Below are positions 50,368 to 59,896 of a stretch of 64,000 bases of DNA, piece by piece. This DNA is from an uncultured Acidobacteriota bacterium (GTDB taxonomy: Bacteria; Acidobacteriota; Thermoanaerobaculia; Multivoradales; UBA5704), in the NCBI GenBank assembly GCA_963700145.1, contig OY969474.1:4096001-4160000 (forward strand). Reading direction: 5' to 3'. Each line of letters starts with the position of its first letter. The stretch's first letter is position 1. Under the pieces are notes generated by a model. It was not told the origin of the DNA and searched no databases. It saw nothing but the letters and a program-made list of their open reading frames with translations. Made by a program: the position numbers and the translations under genes.

Positions 50368-53300
50368 CTAGAAGCGGAACCCCACCGAGATGCGGTAGGT
50401 ACGGGGCACCTGCAGGTCGAGCTCGTTGGTGGACTTGCCGAAGTTCGCTCCCTTCCGCCAGTGCACGCCCTCGACGGGCTGCGTGGTGAAGGGGTTGAAC
50501 GCCGTCAGGCCGCTGCCGGCGTTGGCCGCGGTGAGCACCGTCTGGTTGACGATCTCCGAGCCGTCGTCGTCCAACACGTTGAGGACCTCGGGCTGCAGGA
50601 AGATCTCCACTTCCTTGCCGAAGGCCCCGAAGGTGAAGCCGTAGTTCAGCGACAGGTTCGTGCTGGTGATGTCGTCGGTGTGGAACTCGTCGCGGTCGGT
50701 GAAGAAGTAGGCCACCGTCGCCGGCGCGATGGCGTAGCCCGGGTTGGTGCGGAAGGTGGCCGGGATGTTCGCCGCAGCGCCGTAAGGCGAGCCGGAGCTG
50801 TAGGTCTGCAGCAGCCCGACGTTGAGCGAGTGGCGCTCGGTGCGGAAGACGTCGTAGGTGCCGAAGAGGCGCAGGCGGTGCCGCTGGTCGATCGACAGGT
50901 CGCCGTGCGGGATGTTCCAGCTGGCCTGCTTGTACTCGGGGAAGGCCAGCGCGTCGGAGCGGATCGGGCCGGAGGTGCCGATCTCCCCTTCCCAGTTCCC
51001 CTCGGCGTGCGACAGCGTATAGACGCCGCCGATGTTGAGCTTGTCGGTGAAGCGGTACTGGAACTGGGTGTGGAGGCCGTCGTACTTGCGCTCGAGGACG
51101 TCGTCATTGTTCTCGACGACCTCGAGGTTCGCCGGCCTGCCGGCCGGCGTGATGACTCTGCCGGTCTGCAGGTCGATGCGGCCGACGTAGAAGTCCTGCG
51201 CGTCGCGGTGGACGAGGTCGGCGCGGACGAGCCCCTTGCCGCCCAGCCGCTTGGTGGCGCCGACCGAGTACTCGATGGTGTGCGGCGAGTCGAGCGAGCC
51301 GCCGCCGATGATCGTGGTGCCGCCCGGGATGTCGACCGTGCGGATGACCAGCGGATCGGTCGTGTTGACGTTGCCGACCGAGTCGAACCAGTCCCACAGC
51401 ATCTGCAGCGCCGTGTCGGCCGGGATCAGCGGCTGGCCGCTTCCCGGCACGTTGATCGCCGGGCCGCGGTACCAGAAGGTGAACGCCGCCGGGTTGCCGC
51501 CGAGCGAGGTGGAGTCGCCCTGCGTGTTGGCGAGCGCCGCGACGTAGTGGCCGTAGCTGGCGTTGAACAGCCAGTCGCCGTCGCCCTTGGGGTCCCAGGT
51601 GAGGCCCAGGCGGGGGCTGACCTTGCTGTCGCTCGCCACTTCCTGCCCGGCGCCGTTGACGCCGTCGTTCTCGTCGAAGCGCACGCCGAGGTTGAAGCTC
51701 CAGCGGTCGTTGAGCCGCCAGCGGTCGTTGAGGAAGATCGAGTTGGTGGTGAAGTCGGTGCCCTGGCTGGAGACCAGGATCGGGTTGAACTGGATGATCG
51801 TGCCGCCGGCGGGCGCCGGGGGGTTCGGCCGCGGGACGAAGGTCGGGAAGAGCTGGCCGTTGGCGAGGATCGTGTTGGAGAGCAGGATGCGGAAGTCGCT
51901 CCCCGACTGATGGTTGTCGGCGGCGCGGATGTCGCTGAAGGTGTCGTAGCCGAGGACCAGGTCGTGCGAGCCGAGCGTCTCGGTGGTCAGGAAGTAGGAC
52001 GCCTTGGCCAGCAGGTTCTCGTTGTCCCGCTCCTCCGGCCGGCAGACGCCGCAGAAGGTCGGGCTGTGCCAGCGCGCCGCCGTGGGCACGTCGACGAACA
52101 GCGTCCCCAGGATCCGGTCGGTGAAGCGTGAGCCGGAGCCGATGAAGGTGAACTCGCGCTCCGAGTACTGCGCCTCGATGAAGAAGTTCTCGGTGATGAC
52201 GCCGTTGTAGTTGAGGGCGCGCAGCTCCTGCGGCGTCTCGCGGTTGTTCAGGCTCGCGAGGTCGAGGACGTTGGTGATGAAGCGGTTGCCGGCCTCGGAG
52301 TCCTCGATCTCGAGGTAGGAGGCGGTCAGCCGGTGGCCCTGGAAGGGCGAGAGCGTGAGCTTGCCTTCGTAGCGCCGCTGGTCGCGCCCCTCGGGGAAGG
52401 GGATGCCGGGGGTGGTGACCAGAGCGTTGGTCGGGCTGCGCACGTTGACCTGGCCGGTGGTCCGCGTCAGCACCCGCTCGAGGTCGCGGCCGGCGAGGAA
52501 GTACCAGGCCTTGTCGCGCCAGAGCCAGCCGCCGAGCGTGGCCTCGTAGGTCTTGTTGAGCTCGTCCGTGCGCTCCGGGTGGAGCGGGTTGCTGCTCGAA
52601 ACCCAGTCGTCGTTGGTCAGGTTGCTGCGGAACGAGCCGTGCAGCTCGTTGCCCCCCGACTTGGTGATCGTGTTGATCACGCCGCCGGCGAAGCGCCCGT
52701 ACTCGGCCGAGACCGACGAGGTCGAGGTGGTGGTCTCCTCGATCGAGTCCTCGATGAAGAGGTCGAAGGGCTGGCCGCGCAGGTTCTCGGTGACGACCAC
52801 GCCGTTGACCAGGAACAGGTTCTCGTGCGACTGGGCGCCCGAGACCGAGATGCCGCTGTCGCGCGAGGCGCCGGCGCGCGGGCCGGTGGACGACACGCCC
52901 GCGGTCAGCAGCACCGCGTCGCGGATGTCACGGTTGACCGGCAGCTTCTCGATCACCTCTTTGTAGTTGTAGGTGGTCGAGGCCTGGCCGCCGGCCGAGA
53001 TGGTCTCGTAGCTGCCGGTGACGACGATCTCCTCGGTCACCCCTTCGAGCACCATCTCCTGGTCGAGCGTCGTGGTCTGCGCCGCCGACAGCTTGACCGT
53101 CTTCTCGGCGTTGGCGAAGCCCTGCATCTCGAAGGTGATGCTGTAGTCCCCCGGCGGCAGCAGGGGGATGATGTACGAGCCGTTCTCCTCCGAGGTGGTC
53201 GAGCGAGTCCCCTGCAGCGAAGGCGACGAGACCGTCACCGTGGCGCCGGGGAGCGCCGCGTCCTCCGCGGTGGTGACCCGGCCGCGCAGCGTCGCCGTGG

Positions 53301-53376
53301 GGAGCCCCTGCCCGAAGGCAGGAAGCGCCGCCAGCAGCACGCCGGCCAGCACGAGGCAGGTTCTGGTCGGTTTCAT
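50368..53376 (-). CDS. TonB-dependent receptor (Oar-like, N-terminal carboxypeptidase-regulatory domain)
   Basis: Signal peptide, SAEYGRFAGGVINTITKSG plug motif, C-terminal GFRF; AAAGGAG RBS. Confidence 0.93.
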   Translation of the reverse strand: MKPTRTCLVLAGVLLAALPAFGQGLPTATLRGRVTTAEDAALPGATVTVSSPSLQGTRSTTSEENGSYIIPLLPPGDYSITFEMQGFANAEKTVKLSAAQTTTLDQEMVLEGVTEEIVVTGSYETISAGGQASTTYNYKEVIEKLPVNRDIRDAVLLTAGVSSTGPRAGASRDSGISVSGAQSHENLFLVNGVVVTENLRGQPFDLFIEDSIEETTTSTSSVSAEYGRFAGGVINTITKSGGNELHGSFRSNLTNDDWVSSSNPLHPERTDELNKTYEATLGGWLWRDKAWYFLAGRDLERVLTRTTGQVNVRSPTNALVTTPGIPFPEGRDQRRYEGKLTLSPFQGHRLTASYLEIEDSEAGNRFITNVLDLASLNNRETPQELRALNYNGVITENFFIEAQYSEREFTFIGSGSRFTDRILGTLFVDVPTAARWHSPTFCGVCRPEERDNENLLAKASYFLTTETLGSHDLVLGYDTFSDIRAADNHQSGSDFRILLSNTILANGQLFPTFVPRPNPPAPAGGTIIQFNPILVSSQGTDFTTNSIFLNDRWRLNDRWSFNLGVRFDENDGVNGAGQEVASDSKVSPRLGLTWDPKGDGDWLFNASYGHYVAALANTQGDSTSLGGNPAAFTFWYRGPAINVPGSGQPLIPADTALQMLWDWFDSVGNVNTTDPLVIRTVDIPGGTTIIGGGSLDSPHTIEYSVGATKRLGGKGLVRADLVHRDAQDFYVGRIDLQTGRVITPAGRPANLEVVENNDDVLERKYDGLHTQFQYRFTDKLNIGGVYTLSHAEGNWEGEIGTSGPIRSDALAFPEYKQASWNIPHGDLSIDQRHRLRLFGTYDVFRTERHSLNVGLLQTYSSGSPYGAAANIPATFRTNPGYAIAPATVAYFFTDRDEFHTDDITSTNLSLNYGFTFGAFGKEVEIFLQPEVLNVLDDDGSEIVNQTVLTAANAGSGLTAFNPFTTQPVEGVHWRKGANFGKSTNELDLQVPRTYRISVGFRF

Positions 53377-53503
53377 TCGTGCTCCTTTCCGTATCCGTTC
53401 CTCTGAAGACATGGGGCCCTTCGACGGGGAAGGGCTTCAAAGACCGCTGGCCCGCCACGAGCGGGCGGGCTCGATTCAGCGGAAAGCACTGGCTCTCGGA
53501 GCG

Positions 53504-53569
53504 GCAATTCTCATGCCGCGGTGGGAGGTTGTCAACGACCCACTTAAAGATCTTGGAATCAGCGGTTTA
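53504..53569 (-). promoter_or_regulatory. Putative sigma54 promoter plus IHF-like site for the TonB receptor
   Basis: Minus strand CGGCATG-AGAA-TTGC (53504-53518); AATCAGCGGTTTA at 53557-53569 is one mismatch from WATCAANNNNTTR. Confidence 0.6.
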
Positions 53570-53625
53570 CAGGCACCGCTCGGCACCCTCGTTCAAGTCG
53601 CCGGATTCAGCAGCTTGGACGACCC

Positions 53626-54834
53626 TCAGCCGACCGCGGCCGGCCGCTCCCACAGCTCGCGCACCGCCTCGCGCACCCGGTGGCAGAGCGGCTGCGGCGT
53701 GTAGACGCGGTAGCGGTCGATGCGCGCCAGGTGGCGGATGAACTGCGAGGCCTCCTCCAGCGGCTCGAGCGCGCCGTCGAAGCGGCGCACCAGGACGCGG
53801 CTCTCGCCGAGCCGGTGGGAGTCCTTGGCGGAGTTCGAGACCAGCAGGTTGCCGGCGCCGAAGCGCTCGCGCAGCTCCGGCAGCAGCGCCTCGAAGCGGG
53901 CCTTCTCCTCCGGCGCCAGGTGCTCGCGGGTCTCGAAGGCGAGCGGGAAGGCGTCGCGCTCGACGACGGCGCGCGCGTGCACCGAGCCGGAGCGGCGCAT
54001 CCGCCAGAGCACCGCGACGTCGTCCTCGGCGAGGAAGCGCTCGGGGTCGGCCGGCCAGCGCACCCCCTCCTCGGCGAGCCAGGCGGTCAGGTGGAGCTCC
54101 AGCGCTTTGCCGGTCAGGTTGAAGTACACCTGCGTAAACATGTAGTAGCGCGCCATGACCAGCGCCTCGACCGCGTGGACGCCGCCCTCCTCGAGGCCGA
54201 TCCCCCACTCGCCGCTCGCCGGGTCCTCGACCGGGATCAGCGTGTCAAGCAGGCGCTCCAGGTCGTAGCTGCCGTAGCGGACGCCGCAGTAGAGGCTGTC
54301 GCGCAGCAGGTAATCCATCTTGTCGACGTCCATCTCGCCGGAGACGACCTGCGCGAGCAGGCGCTCGACCGGTCCCTCGCCGCCGGCGAGCAGGCGGGCG
54401 ACGTCGGCGGTCGCCAGGCCGCGGCCGTGCCGCGCGAAGATCTCCTCCATCTCGGGCAGCGCGAGGAGGCGCAGCGTCATCGCCTCGTGGTCGAGCCCGT
54501 GCTCGAAGAGCTCCTCGGCGGAGTGGCTGAACGGGGCGTGGCCGAGGTCGTGGAGGAGAGCGGCGGCGCGCACCAGGCGGCGCTCGCGCGCGTCGCGGGC
54601 GGCGGGCAGCAGTCCCTCCCCCTTGGCGGCGAGCGCGTCGTAGACCCGCCCGGCGAGATGCATGGCGCCGAGGACGTGGCTGAAGCGGCTGTGCTCGGCG
54701 CCGGGGAAGACGAGGAAGGTCAGGCCGAGCTGGTGGATCGAGCGCAGCCGCTGCACCGCGCGGCTCCCCACCAGCGCCGCCTCCAGCGGATCGGCGCGCA
54801 CGAAGCCGTGGACCGGATCGCGGAGGGAGAGCAC
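53626..54834 (-). CDS. HD-domain phosphohydrolase (COG1078/SAMHD1-like dNTPase family)
   Basis: RDPVHG, QRLRSIHQLG, HSRFSH, LLHDLGHAPFSH, DVDKMDYLLRD. Confidence 0.92.
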   Translation of the reverse strand: MLSLRDPVHGFVRADPLEAALVGSRAVQRLRSIHQLGLTFLVFPGAEHSRFSHVLGAMHLAGRVYDALAAKGEGLLPAARDARERRLVRAAALLHDLGHAPFSHSAEELFEHGLDHEAMTLRLLALPEMEEIFARHGRGLATADVARLLAGGEGPVERLLAQVVSGEMDVDKMDYLLRDSLYCGVRYGSYDLERLLDTLIPVEDPASGEWGIGLEEGGVHAVEALVMARYYMFTQVYFNLTGKALELHLTAWLAEEGVRWPADPERFLAEDDVAVLWRMRRSGSVHARAVVERDAFPLAFETREHLAPEEKARFEALLPELRERFGAGNLLVSNSAKDSHRLGESRVLVRRFDGALEPLEEASQFIRHLARIDRYRVYTPQPLCHRVREAVRELWERPAAVG

Positions 54835-54888
54835 GCGGGGAGTCTACCGGGGCGGCGGGCTGCCGCAGAGGCCGGTCGAGGGAGTGCC

Positions 54889-55098
54889 GGGAGCGCTTCC
54901 GCGGCCGCCGCGGCGAATCCCGCGGCGCCCGGCGGATTTCCCCCGCCCGCTGCAGCATGTCCCGCAACGCCCGCGGCATTATCCGCAAACGCCGTGGTGT
55001 GTACCGCCGCCGGAAAAATGTGTATCGCCGCCGCCGCGGCATTTCCCGGAACGCCCGCGGCATCTCCCCCGGCCGCCGCGGTATTTCCCCGAGGTGCC
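54889..55098. repeat. 10-unit imperfect tandem array with exact 21-bp period
   Basis: Units such as GCGGCATTTCCCGGAACGCCC, GCAGCATGTCCCGCAACGCCC, GCGGCATCTCCCCCGGCCGCC. Confidence 0.8.
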
Positions 55099-55280
55099 CT
55101 AGGAAGCGACTTCTCGCCCCGCAAGTGCCTTAGATCATGAGACTTGCCTACACGCGCCGGGGATCCGGGTGACCGGTGTTGGGCAGAGGTGGCGCCGCAG
55201 TCCTTCGGCCTGATCGCCGTCCGGCTCAAAGTCGTCGCCGCTCATCGGGTACGTCGAGGCCGCCGTCCCACCAGTCCTGA

Positions 55281-55433
55281 GCGCTTGCACGCCTCGCCCC
55301 GGCCAAGTGCATGGCGCCGAGTTCATGGCGTGGTGGCTGCGCACGGCGGCGCGGACAAGGTAAGTCAGGCGAAGCTCGTGGATGGAGCGTAGCGGCTGCA
55401 CCGCCCGGCTGCCATCGACACCGCTCCACAGGT
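55281..55433 (-). pseudogene. Decayed duplicate of the 5' part of the HD gene
   Basis: VQPLRSIHELRLTYLV...LGAMHLAG vs VQRLRSIHQLGLTFLV...LGAMHLAG; identical 14-mer TGCATGGCGCCGAG at 54659 and 55308. Confidence 0.8.
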
Positions 55434-55556
55434 GGCGCTGTTGTTACACTAGCCACTGCGGCCGAGGAACGGGACTTCGCTACTGGTCAAAGGCCGGAGA
55501 TACATGCCAACACGGATGGGTTCAGCCTATAGACAGCCACACGAGGCGGCACCTGC

Positions 55557-57128
55557 ATGCCAGTGACCGCTCGTACGATCCTCCGGAGACTGCTTACTAC
55601 TGGGTACTTCCCGCGAGAGCTTCCTCCTACCTTTTCCACGCGCCGCTACGGACTGATCGTGTCGCGCCTATGGAATTCCAGACCAGGTCCCTTTACTTCG
55701 ACTCGAACCACAGCGTCGCCCGCCAAGCACAGCCTGGTCCGCAGCGGACCGCTTCGCCGGCAACTGTCGATACCGAACCCAATCCTCTTCCCGCAGGCAT
55801 GCGATGAGGTCGCGAGTCATTGGGCGACCCTGGAGGCGGCGGCGATGGGGTCTCCATTTACCAGGAGCCGACCAGTCCTTCATAGTAAGGGCGCACGATG
55901 CTTTCTCCCGCTGGTTCCTCGCCAGGGTGATCTAGTTCCTTACAAGGCCGCCGCACGAGCCGGAGCGCGCGTATTAGTTTCCACCGATATCGCTAGATTC
56001 TATGCCTCCATCTATACTCATAGCGTGCCGTGGGCTTTGCACGGCAAGGCTCTTGCGAAGAAGAAGCAACGTGACTACTCGCTCCTAGGCAATCGATTGG
56101 ATAGAGCTCTTCGATTGATGTCGGCCGGCCAGACTATCGGCATTCCTATCGGCCCCGACATCTCCCTCGTAATCGCCGAGACCCTACTGGCGGATGTAGA
56201 CAGGCAGCTCTCGGCGCAGTTTCCTCATGTACAGTTTCTCCGCTACGTCGACGAGTATGAAATTGCCGCAAGGAACCACGAGGAAGCTCAGGCTGCCATT
56301 GCGCAACTCCAACAACTCTTAGCGGGCTTCGAGTTGGAGCTAAATGCGCTAAAGACCTCGCTTCAGACGCTCCCTTGCCGCATCGAACTCCCTTGGGTAT
56401 CTGATCTCCGCTCCCGAAGGATTCGAGCAGCAGTGCCGGCTCAAGCCACGGATCTTGTTGCACTGTTCGATGAGGCGTTCGCCTATGCGCAGAAGCAGCC
56501 AGAGGCACCGGTACTGCGCTACTTAATGGGCAGACTGAAGAATCAACGAGTCGAGCTGCAGAATTGGCGCCTCTACCAGAACCTTCTCCTGCAGTGCATG
56601 ACGGTTGAGCCTGCCACGATTCAGGGCGCGATGACGACTTTGCTTCCACATCTAGAGAACAACTTCGGACTTGAGCGGGGCGCTTTTCTGCGGACGCTGA
56701 ACGGCATCATTGAATACCATGGCCTGCTGGGCCATGGCAATGAGGTCTCTTGGGCTTTATGGAGTCTCATGACCTTGGACCTGAGGATATCGAGGTCGGC
56801 GGTTCGCGCGCTCGAAAAGATGACGGACCCTGCTGTTACCTTATTAGCACTGCATGCGGAGAGCTTAGGGTTGCTTGAGGACCCCCTCGATAAACAGAGT
56901 TGGGTTGCACTGGCAAAGAGAGAGTCTTTGTACGACGAGAACTGGTTGTTGGTGTACGAAGGCGTCAAGAAGGGTTGGTTGCCGACAAATTCGGCTTTCG
57001 TTGAAGCGGATCCTGGATTTGGCTTTCTTTGGCGCCAGGGCGTGGTCTTCTACGACACAGCCGCGATCTTACAACCGAAACCAACAGGAGTTCCGCCCAG
57101 CATCGGAATCGCTCCGAGTTTTTACTGA
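55557..57128 (+). CDS. UG/Abi-clade (defence-associated, DRT-like) reverse transcriptase with helical C-terminal region
   Basis: GYFPRELPP, RRQLSIPNP, DIARFYASIYTHSVPWALHGK, GIPIGP, RYVDE, LELNALKT; visibly lower GC than its flanks. Confidence 0.92.
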   Translation: MPVTARTILRRLLTTGYFPRELPPTFSTRRYGLIVSRLWNSRPGPFTSTRTTASPAKHSLVRSGPLRRQLSIPNPILFPQACDEVASHWATLEAAAMGSPFTRSRPVLHSKGARCFLPLVPRQGDLVPYKAAARAGARVLVSTDIARFYASIYTHSVPWALHGKALAKKKQRDYSLLGNRLDRALRLMSAGQTIGIPIGPDISLVIAETLLADVDRQLSAQFPHVQFLRYVDEYEIAARNHEEAQAAIAQLQQLLAGFELELNALKTSLQTLPCRIELPWVSDLRSRRIRAAVPAQATDLVALFDEAFAYAQKQPEAPVLRYLMGRLKNQRVELQNWRLYQNLLLQCMTVEPATIQGAMTTLLPHLENNFGLERGAFLRTLNGIIEYHGLLGHGNEVSWALWSLMTLDLRISRSAVRALEKMTDPAVTLLALHAESLGLLEDPLDKQSWVALAKRESLYDENWLLVYEGVKKGWLPTNSAFVEADPGFGFLWRQGVVFYDTAAILQPKPTGVPPSIGIAPSFY

Positions 57129-57265
57129 CAGCTGAGTGGCACTGGCGACTCGGTAACGGCCTCCAAGGAATCCAGAAGCTCGTCCCGCCTGATGCCAGAG
57201 GTGCTCAGCAAAGAGATCCGTTCCATTAAGCGGATTGCGGTCGCCGACCGTTGACCGGCCGAGAA

Positions 57266-57961
57266 TCAGTTCTGGTCGGACTTGCCGGCCAGGTGCCGGT
57301 AGGGGCTGAGGAGGTCGACGACCTGGCGGCGGCCGCGGAGGATGGCGAGGAGTGTCAAGGCGCGCTCGGGGACGGCCTCGGTCAGCAGGTGGAGCTTGCG
57401 CAGCACCGGCAGGTCGAGCTCGACGGCGATGCGGTTGACCGTCTCCTCGAAGCCGCAGCGGCCGGCCATGTCTTCGAGCTCCTCGCCACTGAGCGGGAAG
57501 CTCTCGCCGAGGTCCTCGGCGAGGGAGTGGGCGAGCGAGAGGACGGCGCCGCGCACCACCTGAAGCCCGGCGTCCTCCTCGTTGAGCGGGGGATCGAAGA
57601 CCGGGCGCACCACGCCGTGCCGCACCGGCTCCCCTCCGGCCTCGGCGGTGACCTGGAAGCGGAACTCGCCGTAGAGCAGGACGTTGATGCGGCCGTTGGC
57701 GAGGAACTCGACGTCCTCGAGGCGCCCCGCGGTGCCGCCGGGGAAGATCTCCGGCGGGTCGCTCGCCACCCGGCCCTGCGGCGGCTTGAGCAGCACGATC
57801 CCGACGCGCCGCGACTCCTCGTCGCCGTCCACCAGCTCGCGCAGCAGGCGGCGGTAGCGCGGCTCCTCGATGTGCAGCCGCAGGTGCGTGCGCGGGAAGT
57901 GGACGACGTCGGGCAGCGGGAACAGCGGGAGGCGGGTGCCGGCGCTCGGGACCTCGCTCAT
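57266..57961 (-). CDS. Lon protease N-terminal substrate-binding domain protein
   Basis: LPLFPLPDVVHFP...LHI.EPRYR.L motif; GGAGG RBS. Confidence 0.88.
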   Translation of the reverse strand: MSEVPSAGTRLPLFPLPDVVHFPRTHLRLHIEEPRYRRLLRELVDGDEESRRVGIVLLKPPQGRVASDPPEIFPGGTAGRLEDVEFLANGRINVLLYGEFRFQVTAEAGGEPVRHGVVRPVFDPPLNEEDAGLQVVRGAVLSLAHSLAEDLGESFPLSGEELEDMAGRCGFEETVNRIAVELDLPVLRKLHLLTEAVPERALTLLAILRGRRQVVDLLSPYRHLAGKSDQN

Positions 57962-57995
57962 GGACCTCCAACATAGCAGGCGACATGCCAGGAGC

Positions 57996-58880
57996 GTGAG
58001 ACAATCCGCGGCCGTGCGTCGCACCGCCGTAGCCGCCGCCCTGCTCCTCGCGATCGCCGCTCCGGCCGCCGCCGACGACTTCGACGCGGCGATGGCGAGC
58101 GGCGCGGCGGCGTGGACCCGCCGCGCCCAGGGGCACCGCGGCAGCCGCGCCCAGCCAGCGGCGATCGAGCAGGCCGTCGCCGCCTACGAGCGGGCGGTGG
58201 CGGCCCGTCCCGGCGACGTCGCCGCCCGCTCGCGCCTGCTCCAGGCCCTCCACTTTCGCGGCGAGCACGCCGCCCCCGACCGCGACGCCCGGCGCCGCGC
58301 CTTCGAGCGCGGCCGCGAGATCGCCGAGGCCGGGCTCGACCGCCTCGCCGTCCCGTCGGGAGGGCGTGCGCGCCTCGACAAGATGACGCCGGCCGCCGCG
58401 GCCCACGCGCTCGCCGGCACCGCCGGCGCCGCCGACCTCCATCTCTGGGCGGCGGTCCACTGGGGGCTCTGGGGGGACGCCTTCGGCCGCCTCGCCGCGG
58501 CGCGCCAGGGGGTGGGCGACAAGGTGCGCCGCTACGCGGAGATCGTCGTCGCGCTCGACGAGCGGCACGAGGCCGGCGGCGGCCACCGCGTTCTCGGCCG
58601 CCTCCACGCGCTGGCGCCGAAGGTGCCGCTGGTCACCGGCTGGGTGGACCGCGAGAAGGCGGTCGCGCACCTGCGGCGGGCGGTGGCGCTGGGCCCCGAG
58701 GAGCCGTACAACCAGCTCTTCCTCGCCGAGGCGCTGCTCGAGCACCAGCCGGCGAAGAAGGCCGAGGCCGTCGCCATCCTCCGCCGACTGGTCCAGGCGC
58801 CGCCGCCCGCCGACCGCGCCGTCGAGGTCGAAAAGGTGCGCGAGGACGCCCGCGCGCTGCTGCAGCAGCACGGAGGTTAG
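57996..58880 (+). CDS. Exported TPR (TatT-like) protein
   Basis: Signal peptide, HWGLWG, HRVLGRLH..AP..P, TPR helices. Confidence 0.7.
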   Translation: MRQSAAVRRTAVAAALLLAIAAPAAADDFDAAMASGAAAWTRRAQGHRGSRAQPAAIEQAVAAYERAVAARPGDVAARSRLLQALHFRGEHAAPDRDARRRAFERGREIAEAGLDRLAVPSGGRARLDKMTPAAAAHALAGTAGAADLHLWAAVHWGLWGDAFGRLAAARQGVGDKVRRYAEIVVALDERHEAGGGHRVLGRLHALAPKVPLVTGWVDREKAVAHLRRAVALGPEEPYNQLFLAEALLEHQPAKKAEAVAILRRLVQAPPPADRAVEVEKVREDARALLQQHGG

Positions 58881-58882
58881 GA

Positions 58883-59896
58883 ATGCTCGCCCTGCTCGTC
58901 CTCCTCATGGCCACGCCGCCGGAGGCGCCGACCGAGATCACGCTCACCCCTCCCGCCGCGGCGCCGGTCGAGGCGCCCACCGCGCCCGCGGCCTTGCCGG
59001 TCGAAGAGCTGCGCGCCCGCTTCGCCGCCCTGCTCAGCGCGGCCCGCGCCGCGACCGGGCTGGCGCCCCTGGCGCCCGATCCCGCCCTCGACCAGGTGGC
59101 CCAGCGCCACGCCGACGACATGGCCGCGCAGGGCTACTTCGGCTTCACCAGCCCAACCGGCGGCAACGTGGACCAGTGGGTGAACGAGGCCGGCTATCTC
59201 GCGGCGCTGGTCGGCGAGAAGCTGGCGCAGGCCCCGCTCGCCCGCACCGCCGAAGAGCTCGTCGCGGGCTGGGACGCGGAGCGGGAGAAGAACGCCGGGA
59301 GCCTCTTCCACCCCGAAGCGCGCCACCTCGGCGTCGGCATCGCCGCGCGCGGCGAGCAGGTCACCTACGCCCTGGTCCTGGGACGCGCGGCGGGCGAAGC
59401 GGCGGCCAGCGCGTTGGACGCCAGGCTCGCCGACCGCGCGCCGGCGCGGGCGGAGTACCTGGCGCGGGTCAACTCGATCCGGACCGAACTGGGCCTCCTG
59501 CCGCTGCAGCACGATCCGGCGCTCGACCGGCCGGCGCAGGAGCACGCCGACGCCCTGCTCGCCGCCCTGCGGCGCGGCGATGCGCCGGAGTCGATCGAGC
59601 GCCTCGCCGACCGCGTGCAGGCGGCGCAGGCGGGCATCGGCAGCTATCGCGGCGTCGAGCGCGACACGTACTGGGGCGTCGGCAAGGGGCGCATCGAGCC
59701 GAAGATGGCCTCGCTCGGCAGCAGCATCGTGCTCGACGCCGCCTCGGCGACCGACGCGGTCGCGGCCACCTTCGCCCTGGAGCCGACGCCCGACCTGCGC
59801 GAGGCGGGCTACCGCCGCCTCGGCCTCGGCGTCGCCCACGGCGAGGTGGCCGGCCGCCCGCGCACCGTCTGGGTGGCGGTCCTGCTGCGCCGCTAG
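58883..59896 (+). CDS. CAP/SCP domain protein (two CAP-like repeats)
   Basis: R...GL.PL..DPALD..AQ.HA.DM motif twice, LGVG. Confidence 0.85.
   Translation: MLALLVLLMATPPEAPTEITLTPPAAAPVEAPTAPAALPVEELRARFAALLSAARAATGLAPLAPDPALDQVAQRHADDMAAQGYFGFTSPTGGNVDQWVNEAGYLAALVGEKLAQAPLARTAEELVAGWDAEREKNAGSLFHPEARHLGVGIAARGEQVTYALVLGRAAGEAAASALDARLADRAPARAEYLARVNSIRTELGLLPLQHDPALDRPAQEHADALLAALRRGDAPESIERLADRVQAAQAGIGSYRGVERDTYWGVGKGRIEPKMASLGSSIVLDAASATDAVAATFALEPTPDLREAGYRRLGLGVAHGEVAGRPRTVWVAVLLRR

What the first reader, a model, noticed from the sequence alone, without database searches (positions are those of the whole stretch)
56244..56255. RT catalytic motif is YVDE, not YxDD
Seen: TAC GTC GAC GAG = Y-V-D-E in an otherwise intact ORF with the first catalytic Asp (TDIARFY) present. 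Known: the second Asp of YxDD is nearly invariant in RTs. Inference: this is altered metal or nucleotide chemistry, an attenuated toxic enzyme, or a one-base sequencing error.
Basis: partly seen in the sequence, partly recalled or inferred. Interest (0 to 1): 0.7.

Follow-up and report, generated by a model that had tools for sequence, protein, structure and literature searches.

The report
DRT6 defence polymerase with YVDE motif
The gene is a recently inserted anti-phage DRT6 "reverse transcriptase" whose second catalytic aspartate is a glutamate, a real but minor natural variant that recurs in a few percent of this enzyme family.

Summary
TAC GTC GAC GAG at 56244-56255 encodes Y230-V-D-E233, in frame, in an intact 523-aa ORF (55557-57128, +).

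The protein belongs to the DRT6/UG12 family. These are single-gene class 1 UG/Abi defence enzymes that make untemplated, protein-primed ssDNA. The best profile match is PADLOC Drt6 (1.4e-149). The AlphaFold model (pLDDT 95) matches the solved DRT6 hexamer 9wy8 at TM 0.88/0.93.

The gene lies in a 2.4-kb low-GC insert. Three same-genus genomes lack the insert at the same site.

A sequencing error is unlikely. Three other proteins in the gene's closest clade of 6, from other assemblies, also carry Glu. Across 251 family proteins the position is D in 238, E in 7 and N in 6, with at least 10 changes on the tree. The first motif-C Asp is invariant (251/251).

The E and N forms are not decaying. Full-length variants keep 47-51 of 52 family-conserved residues, and the window protein keeps 51.

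Most likely this is a working DRT6 with a conservative change at a metal ligand. Altered rate or metal preference is possible but untested. Read-level support at 56255 could not be obtained.

Interest is modest: a new member of a known kind.

The parts
55557..57128 (+). DRT6/UG12-family defence reverse-transcriptase-like gene, 523 aa, intact
   Evidence: ORF. PADLOC Drt6 PDLC03748 E 1.4e-149 over residues 8-505. Pfam RVT_1. PDB 9wy8 E 2e-73. Model pLDDT 95 with top fold hit 9wy8 'hexameric DRT6', TM 0.88/0.93.
55557..56390 (+). RT-like fingers and palm (about residues 1-278)
   Evidence: Secondary structure of the model. Boundaries set by analogy with DRT4 domain limits in PMC12783706 and are approximate.
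55986..55988 (+). Motif A catalytic Asp D144 (TDIARFY)
   Evidence: D in 250 of 251 family proteins; the one gap is a fragment.
56019..56021 (+). H155, equivalent of DRT4 His160 (RNase 'HD' site)
   Evidence: Alignment to DRT4. Invariant in alignment A1. Role in DRT4 from bioRxiv 10.64898/2026.10.21.760695 (passages). A role here is inferred.
56100..56102 (+). D182, equivalent of DRT4 Asp192 (RNase 'HD' site)
   Evidence: Alignment. Invariant in A1. A role here is inferred.
56244..56255 (+). Motif C, Y230-V-D232-E233 (YVDE in place of YxDD)
   Evidence: Column counts: D232 251/251; position 233 D 238, E 7, N 6; position 230 Y only 134/251.
56391..57125 (+). C-terminal all-helical alpha-Rep domain replacing the thumb (about residues 279-523)
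   Evidence: Helices 279-505 in the model. Full-length superposition on DRT6 and DRT4.
54848..57258 (.). About 2.4-kb strain-specific low-GC insert carrying the gene
   Evidence: In same-genus genomes G004, G001 and G003 the flanking HD and LON_substr_bdg genes lie 72, 30 and 16 bp apart. GC is 0.54-0.62 against 0.68-0.81 around it.
55298..55413 (-). Frameshifted relic of the 5' end of an HD-domain gene, inside the insert
   Evidence: 77-79% identical to the 5' coding part of the resident HD gene and of those in G004 and G001. The reading frame changes within the fragment.
53626..54834 (-). Left flanking gene: HD + HD_assoc_2 phosphohydrolase (conserved in the genus)
   Evidence: Pfam. Weak PADLOC dGTPase hit, E 1.4e-08. 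94% DNA identity in G004.
57266..58024 (-). Right flanking gene: LON substrate-binding domain protein (conserved in the genus)
   Evidence: Pfam PF02190, E 9.5e-20. 97% DNA identity in G004.

Best explanation
The ORF is a functional, horizontally acquired DRT6 (UG12) anti-phage enzyme. Enzymes of this kind form a hexamer, prime on their own protein, and make ssDNA without a template. The published model for DRT4/DRT6 is that a phage ssDNA-binding protein which engages or protects this ssDNA switches the system to a toxic, abortive-infection state; in DRT4 that state works through an intrinsic RNase site. E233 is a genuine, conservative replacement of the second motif-C carboxylate, the ligand of metal A and of a nearby third ion. 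This family tolerates E or N at that position and has acquired them repeatedly. The enzyme most likely still polymerises, possibly more slowly or with a shifted Mg/Mn preference. Shown here: family membership, fold, the insert, recurrence of E/N, and retention of all other conserved residues. Inferred: the activity, its consequences, and the defence role in this host.
For: Family and fold: PADLOC Drt6 E 1.4e-149. 9wy8 by sequence, E 2e-73 over residues 9-503. 9wy8 by fold, TM 0.88/0.93, rmsd 2.2 A, ahead of DRT4 at TM 0.80. Model pLDDT 95, pTM 0.93.

Real variant: E at the same column in P0002, P0005 and P0006 from other assemblies. Of 251 family proteins, D 238, E 7, N 6. Among the 150 representatives at 50% identity, D 141, N 5, E 4. 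At least 10 state changes on a FastTree of 244 full-length rows. The closest clade of 6 (SH-aLRT 100) holds 4 E and 2 D, and P0002 (E) and P0003 (D) are 87% identical.

Not decaying: the window protein keeps 51 of 52 columns that are at least 93% conserved among the 238 D-type proteins, and its only miss is D233E. The five other full-length E forms keep 50-51 and the five full-length N forms 47-51. The truncated E form P0230 keeps 46, with 4 gaps. The D-type median is 51 and the minimum 44. D144, D232, H155 and D182 are all present.

Recent acquisition: empty sites in 3 same-genus genomes. No full-length relative in the 40 related genomes searched. Low GC.

Mechanism from papers (passages read): DRT6 makes template-independent DNA covalently bound to the protein, is activated by T5 ORF55, and a D223A/D224A mutant was used as the catalytically inactive control (PMC12783706). 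DRT4 has an RNase HD site at H160/D192 (bioRxiv 10.64898/2026.10.21.760695). Mutations of the second Asp diminish activity or change the metal requirement but do not inactivate (PMC4634563). Pol A and Y families naturally carry Glu at this position (PMC3394715).
Against: No biochemical or expression data exist for this protein, and no RNA holder was listed. In true RTs and RdRps, substitutions of the second Asp usually reduce activity strongly and sometimes abolish it (PMC3394715), so E233 may cripple polymerisation. The only DRT6 active-site mutant in the papers read is the double Ala mutant, not D-to-E. Reads at 56255 were not seen. A mixed D/E clade could also reflect relaxed selection on that clade. 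Conservation was judged at protein level only; no dN/dS was possible because DNA of the close homologues was not available.
Confidence: 0.62

Rival explanations
1. Adaptive retuning. Glu (and Asn in other members) is selected because it slows the constitutive ssDNA synthesis or makes it depend on Mn2+ or high dNTP levels. This would lower self-toxicity in hosts that clear ssDNA poorly, or sharpen the trigger threshold.
For: Recurrent independent E/N origins, with everything else conserved. Birnavirus ADN is proposed to restrain polymerase activity, and Mn2+ suppresses second-Asp mutants in poliovirus RdRp and HIV RT (PMC3394715, passages). DRT6 is toxic in E. coli lacking SbcB (PMC12783706, passage). 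No SbcB-type ExoI C-terminal domain (PF08411) was found in this genome.
Against: Only about 5% of members carry E or N, and the variants are scattered rather than forming stable clades; D and E alternate between proteins 87% identical. That pattern looks more like near-neutral drift. The ExoI result does not discriminate, because only 1 of 14 control genomes has PF08411 and the hosts of the other variants are unknown. No residue covaries convincingly with E. The best candidate, A297, occurs in 7/7 E forms against 50/238 D forms, uncorrected p 2.7e-5, and 4 of the 7 are from one clade.
Confidence: 0.2
2. A polymerase-dead or decaying copy: the substitution has inactivated the enzyme and the gene is on its way to loss, or it survives only for a non-polymerase role.
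For: The second Asp is a metal ligand in DRT4 (D241; PMC12783706, passage). Substitutions there can abolish synthesis in other polymerases (PMC3394715). The insert also holds a decayed gene fragment.
Against: The ORF is intact and 51 of 52 conserved residues are kept, as good as the D-type median. The same change sits in otherwise fully conserved homologues in several lineages. In DRT4, polymerisation is required for defence and for RNase activation (both DRT4 papers, passages), so a dead polymerase would probably be useless and would decay further.
Confidence: 0.12
3. A one-base sequencing or assembly error: the true codon is GAC or GAT.
For: D to E needs a single third-position change. Read-level support at the site was not obtained. 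This exact protein is seen on only one contig.
Against: The nearest homologue P0002 and two further clade members from other assemblies have Glu at the same column. Run X1 contigs agree with the window at every base they cover, 5 pieces with 0 differences, though they do not cover the site.
Confidence: 0.05

Closest known systems
DRT6 / UG12 (class 1 UG/Abi RT; Sphingopyxis sp. DRT6, PDB 9wy8)
   Same: Best profile hit. Full-length sequence match, E 2e-73. Fold TM 0.88/0.93 at 30% identity. Same RT-plus-alpha-Rep architecture and single-gene layout. Motif A Asp and first motif C Asp are present.
   Different: Motif C is YVDE; 9wy8 has YVDD. Only about 30% identical. Activity, oligomeric state and phage targets are untested here.
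DRT4 / UG15 (E. coli; PDB 9vdo, 9vdv, 9l9s, 21ou)
   Same: Same architecture, TM about 0.8. Equivalents of the RNase HD residues H160/D192 are present as H155/D182. DRT4 and DRT6 are reported to share the ORF55 trigger (PMC12783706).
   Different: About 21% identity. NCBIfam Drt4 scores 238.5 bits, below the 450 cut-off. The DRT4 priming residue Tyr125 aligns to L119 here, so priming must use another residue.
AbiK / Abi-P2 (Lactococcus abortive-infection polymerases; PDB 7r06-7r08)
   Same: Protein-primed, untemplated DNA polymerases with an RT-like core plus a helical domain, forming hexamers. TM 0.62-0.68.
   Different: Sequence similarity is limited to the RT core (E about 1e-11 to 1e-15). 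The priming tyrosines sit elsewhere (PMC12783706, passage).
Motif C variants in other right-hand polymerases: D-E in Pol A and Y families, D-N in birnaviruses and Mononegavirales
   Same: The residue after the invariant motif-C Asp is Glu or Asn in enzymes that are fully active (PMC3394715, PMC4634563; passages).
   Different: These are unrelated families with templated synthesis. They are an analogy for the chemistry only, not relatives of this gene.

Membership tests
DRT6 / UG12 | Best and full-length match to the UG12/DRT6 profile | tested here: met
   PADLOC PDLC03748 Drt6, E 1.4e-149, residues 8-505 on profile positions 3-483 of 511. The next hits are PDLC02177 and PDLC02179, both labelled Drt4, at 5.6e-146 and 1.7e-140. 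The curated NCBIfam Drt4 model is below its cut-off.
DRT6 / UG12 | Fold of the solved DRT6 protomer (RT fingers and palm plus C-terminal alpha-Rep, no thumb) | tested here: met
   Model pLDDT 95. 9wy8_A 'hexameric DRT6' ranks first: E 3.8e-34, TM 0.88/0.93, rmsd 2.2 A over 500 columns.
DRT6 / UG12 | Canonical catalytic triad: motif A Asp plus the two Asp of YxDD | tested here: not met
   D144 and D232 are present, but the second Asp is E233. 13 of 251 family proteins share this kind of deviation, 7 E and 6 N, so the strict motif is not universal in the family.
DRT6 / UG12 | Single-gene system without an associated ncRNA or partner gene | tested here: inconclusive
   The 2.4-kb insert holds one long ORF with a family match. 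No Rfam match at E <= 1 in 53000-59000. An undescribed small RNA cannot be excluded.
DRT6 / UG12 | Template-independent, protein-primed DNA synthesis | not testable with these tools
   Known for Sphingopyxis DRT6 (PMC12783706, passage). It needs an enzyme assay.
DRT6 / UG12 | Homohexamer (dimer of trimers) | not tested
   A hexamer exceeds the complex tool's size limit, so no job was sent.
DRT6 / UG12 | Confers phage resistance by abortive infection | not testable with these tools
   Shown for other members (PMC9226505, PMC12783706; passages). Here there is only context: a strain-specific low-GC insert.
DRT4 / UG15 | Score above the NCBIfam Drt4 equivalog cut-off | tested here: not met
   238.5 bits against a cut-off of 450.
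DRT4 / UG15 | Priming tyrosine Tyr125 in the palm | tested here: not met
   The HMMER alignment puts L119 opposite DRT4 Y125. The nearby Y129 is not conserved in the family.
DRT4 / UG15 | RNase 'HD' residues His160 and Asp192 | tested here: met
   The equivalents H155 and D182 are invariant in the 67-sequence alignment A1. RNase activity itself was not tested.

The most novel reading that the evidence does not exclude
DRT6 enzymes with D-E or D-N in motif C are fully functional. They would mark a relaxation, or retuning, of the 'second aspartate' rule that holds across RNA-directed polymerases. Once an RT-fold enzyme stops reading a template, the third-ion site that this Asp builds may become dispensable, and the active site drifts toward the D-E arrangement of DNA polymerase families A and Y. 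In this reading the E/N forms have a measurably different metal preference or synthesis rate, and that sets the trigger threshold of the defence.
Probability: 0.25. Interest if true: 0.5.

Novelty: new member of a known kind. Interest (0 to 1): 0.3.

Why it matters
The gene itself is an ordinary, if divergent, DRT6 defence gene. The useful point is about the family. The residue treated as untouchable in RTs is replaced by Glu or Asn in about 5% of DRT6 proteins, and the 'Y' of YxDD is kept in only about half. Meanwhile the first motif-C Asp and the motif-A Asp never vary.

This gives natural, ready-made variants for testing what the second carboxylate does in untemplated, protein-primed synthesis: metal choice, rate, self-toxicity. 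It also warns against calling RT-like defence genes inactive on the YxDD motif alone.

Tried and rejected
Read support: only Logan contigs were served, and no piece settles base 56255. No RNA holder was listed.

DNA of close homologues for dN/dS: the one metagenome scan returned only distant relatives, at most 40% identity. One of them, L001, carries D-N. The look-up tool for encoding contigs is closed, so no codon-level test was made.

Compensatory residue: a column-by-column enrichment test found no convincing partner of E233. The best was A297, in 7/7 E forms against 50/238 D forms, uncorrected, with 4 of the 7 from one clade.

Host exonuclease idea: PF08411 (ExoI C-terminal domain) was not found in this genome, but only 1 of 14 control genomes has it, so the result does not discriminate.

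ncRNA: no Rfam match. Promoter scan: 0 sigma-70-like sites.

Literature: a whole-word search for YVDE/YMDE/YADE/YIDE/YXDE returned 954 papers, and none of the 25 listed concerns polymerases. A search for D186E/D186N/D225E/YXDD/'second aspartate' with at least 2 terms gave 2 unrelated papers. The terms YXDD, YADD and 'domain 5' do not occur in the main text of PMC9226505, and the 'motif C' matches shown did not concern the RT motif. I therefore found no printed statement on D-E or D-N variants in UG12; supplements were not read. The DRT6 cryo-EM paper (Wang et al. 2025, BBRC) and Rong et al. 2026 (Science) are known to me only from a reference list.

Earlier notes of this scan: nothing near this place.

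Full report
**Observation.** Window 56244-56255 reads TAC GTC GAC GAG. It lies in frame in the only long intact ORF of the region, 55557..57128 on the + strand, 523 aa. The four codons give Y230-V231-D232-E233. Pfam RVT_1 covers residues 131-270 (E 1.5e-09). HMMER alignments to solved relatives put YVDE exactly opposite YVDD of 9wy8 and YIDD of DRT4/UG15.

**What the gene is.**
- The best PADLOC model is Drt6, PDLC03748 (E 1.4e-149, residues 8-505). Models labelled Drt4 follow it.
- The curated NCBIfam Drt4 model scores 238.5 bits against a cut-off of 450.
- The best match among solved structures is 9wy8 (E 2e-73 over residues 9-503).
- An AlphaFold2 model built on a 67-sequence alignment has pLDDT 95 and pTM 0.93.
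- Its top Foldseek hit is 9wy8_A, 'Cryo-EM structure of the hexameric DRT6' (TM 0.88/0.93, rmsd 2.2 A). DRT4/UG15 follows at TM about 0.8, then AbiK and Abi-P2 at 0.62-0.68.
- The model shows motif C as a beta-hairpin (strands 226-230 and 233-238). An all-helical C-terminal half sits in the place of a thumb.

The protein is therefore a DRT6/UG12 member, a class 1 UG/Abi 'reverse transcriptase'.

**What the family does (papers; passages read, not whole texts).**
- UG12 was named DRT6 after it protected E. coli against T5 and ZL-19, and mutation of its RT catalytic domain abolished protection (PMC9226505).
- DRT4 makes random ssDNA without a template, primed on its own Tyr125. Its metals are held by D149, D240 and D241.
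- DRT6 likewise makes untemplated DNA covalently bound to the protein. It is oligomeric, is toxic with the T5 protein ORF55 and in sbcB-deleted cells, and a D223A/D224A mutant was used as its catalytically inactive control (PMC12783706).
- A 2026 preprint adds that DRT4 has an RNase site built from H160 and D192, switched on by phage SSB plus dGTP. It cites a DRT6 cryo-EM paper (bioRxiv 10.64898/2026.10.21.760695).
- In the window protein the aligned residues H155 and D182 are present and invariant in the 67-sequence alignment.
- The DRT4 priming Tyr aligns to L119 here, and no conserved Tyr lies nearby. Priming must therefore use another residue, which I could not identify.

**Context.**
- The gene sits in a low-GC stretch, 0.54-0.62 against 0.68-0.81 around it.
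- In three same-genus genomes the flanking HD phosphohydrolase gene and the LON-substrate-binding-domain gene are 72, 30 and 16 bp apart. Their DNA identity to the window is 81-97%. Here they are about 2.4 kb apart (gene names).
- The fourth same-genus genome gave only short matches.
- None of the 40 related genomes searched has a full-length relative. The 13 with any match have only other RTs, at most 37% identity over the core.
- No Rfam family matches in 53000-59000.

The gene is thus a recently acquired single-gene insert.

**Is Glu real, and how unusual is it in this family?**
- Among the 120 closest proteins (self included) the second-Asp column is D in 113, E in 4 and N in 3.
- After adding the 131 new representatives from an exhaustive HMMER search (251 proteins in all), it is D in 238, E in 7 and N in 6. 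The first motif-C Asp is D in 251/251. The motif-A Asp is D in 250/251, and the one gap is a fragment. The 'Y' position is Y in only 134/251.
- Counting only the 150 representatives at 50% identity: D 141, N 5, E 4.
- On an IQ-TREE of 41 rows the window protein falls in a clade of 6 with SH-aLRT 100: P0001 E, P0002 E, P0003 D, P0004 D, P0005 E, P0006 E. That tree used 37 of the first 40 hits, leaving out three fragments, plus four more distant rows. P0002 and P0003 are 87% identical yet differ at this residue.
- On a FastTree of 244 rows, with the motif columns removed and seven proteins shorter than 450 aa left out, the D/E/N states need at least 10 changes, 5 involving E and 5 involving N.
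- All eight E/N variants tested (4 E forms from the close clade and beyond, plus P0139, P0160, P0082, P0227) score as DRT6-type. Drt6 is the top model for seven of them. For P0082 the top model is PDLC02177, which is labelled Drt4.

Glu in three other assemblies of the nearest clade makes a base-calling error here improbable.

**Are the variants decaying?** I took the 52 columns that are at least 93% conserved among the 238 D-type proteins.
- The window protein keeps 51, and its only miss is D233E.
- The five other full-length E forms keep 50-51.
- The five full-length N forms keep 47-51.
- The truncated E form P0230 keeps 46, with 4 gaps.
- D-type proteins have median 51 and minimum 44.

These are not pseudogene-like sequences.

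**Chemistry (papers; passages read).**
- PMC3394715 reports that the second Asp of the GDD/YxDD position contacts catalytic ion A and a nearby non-catalytic ion. It is invariant in RTs and most RdRps, is Asn in birnaviruses, and is Glu in DNA polymerase families A and Y.
- The same paper reports that Mn2+ suppresses mutants at this site in poliovirus RdRp and HIV RT.

DRT6 does not copy a template. A weaker constraint on this residue, and on the stacking 'Y', is therefore plausible. That last step is my inference.

**Verdict.**
- Most likely (about 0.6): a working DRT6 with a real, conservative and repeatedly tolerated D-to-E change.
- About 0.2: the change is adaptive retuning, either attenuation or a metal shift.
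- About 0.12: the polymerase is dead.
- About 0.05: a sequencing error.

**What remains open.** Read-level confirmation is missing, because the contigs served do not settle base 56255. Codon-level selection could not be tested, because no DNA of close homologues was available. All biochemistry is untested. I found no printed mention of D-E or D-N forms in UG12, but I read no supplements, and the DRT6 structure paper was not available to me.

Noticed in passing
window 55298-55413 (- strand): A roughly 116-nt relic of the 5' coding end of an HD-domain gene lies inside the insert, just upstream of the RT gene. It is 77-79% identical to the resident HD gene (54649-54768) and to those of two same-genus genomes. 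The reading frame shifts within it. It may have been carried in from a donor in which the RT also sat next to an HD gene.
   Followed up: partly
window 54881-55091: GC-rich repeats with a period of about 21 nt (consensus GCCGCCGCGGCATTCCCCCG; also seen as 42/84-nt spaced copies) lie at the left edge of the insert. Similar stretches match many other contigs in same-genus genomes, so this is a dispersed intergenic repeat of the genus.
   Followed up: partly
window 56244-56246 (residue 230) across the family: The 'Y' of YxDD is Y in only 134 of 251 DRT6-family proteins: F 49, H 21, W 7, and many others. In DRT4 this Tyr stacks on the 3'-terminal base of the product.
   Followed up: partly
L001:4015-4194 (metagenome contig, 40% identical homologue): An intact DRT6 homologue with motif C reading ...AIDNYEL (Asn at the second Asp).
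   Followed up: no
window 57103-57117: A terminator-like hairpin followed by a T-run (TCGGAATCGCTCCGA GTTTTTAC) overlaps the last codons and the stop of the RT ORF. The region has 4 such sites against 1.3 expected from shuffles.
   Followed up: no
window 53626-54834 (- strand): The flanking HD + HD_assoc_2 protein has a weak PADLOC hit to the dGTPase defence model (E 1.4e-08, residues 48-129 only). It is conserved in the genus, so it is probably a housekeeping dNTP hydrolase-like gene and not part of the insert.
   Followed up: no
whole genome G000: No ExoI/SbcB C-terminal domain (PF08411) was found in the window's 5.46-Mb single-contig genome. In E. coli, DRT6 is toxic without SbcB (paper), so another exonuclease must clear the ssDNA here, if it is made.
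   Followed up: partly
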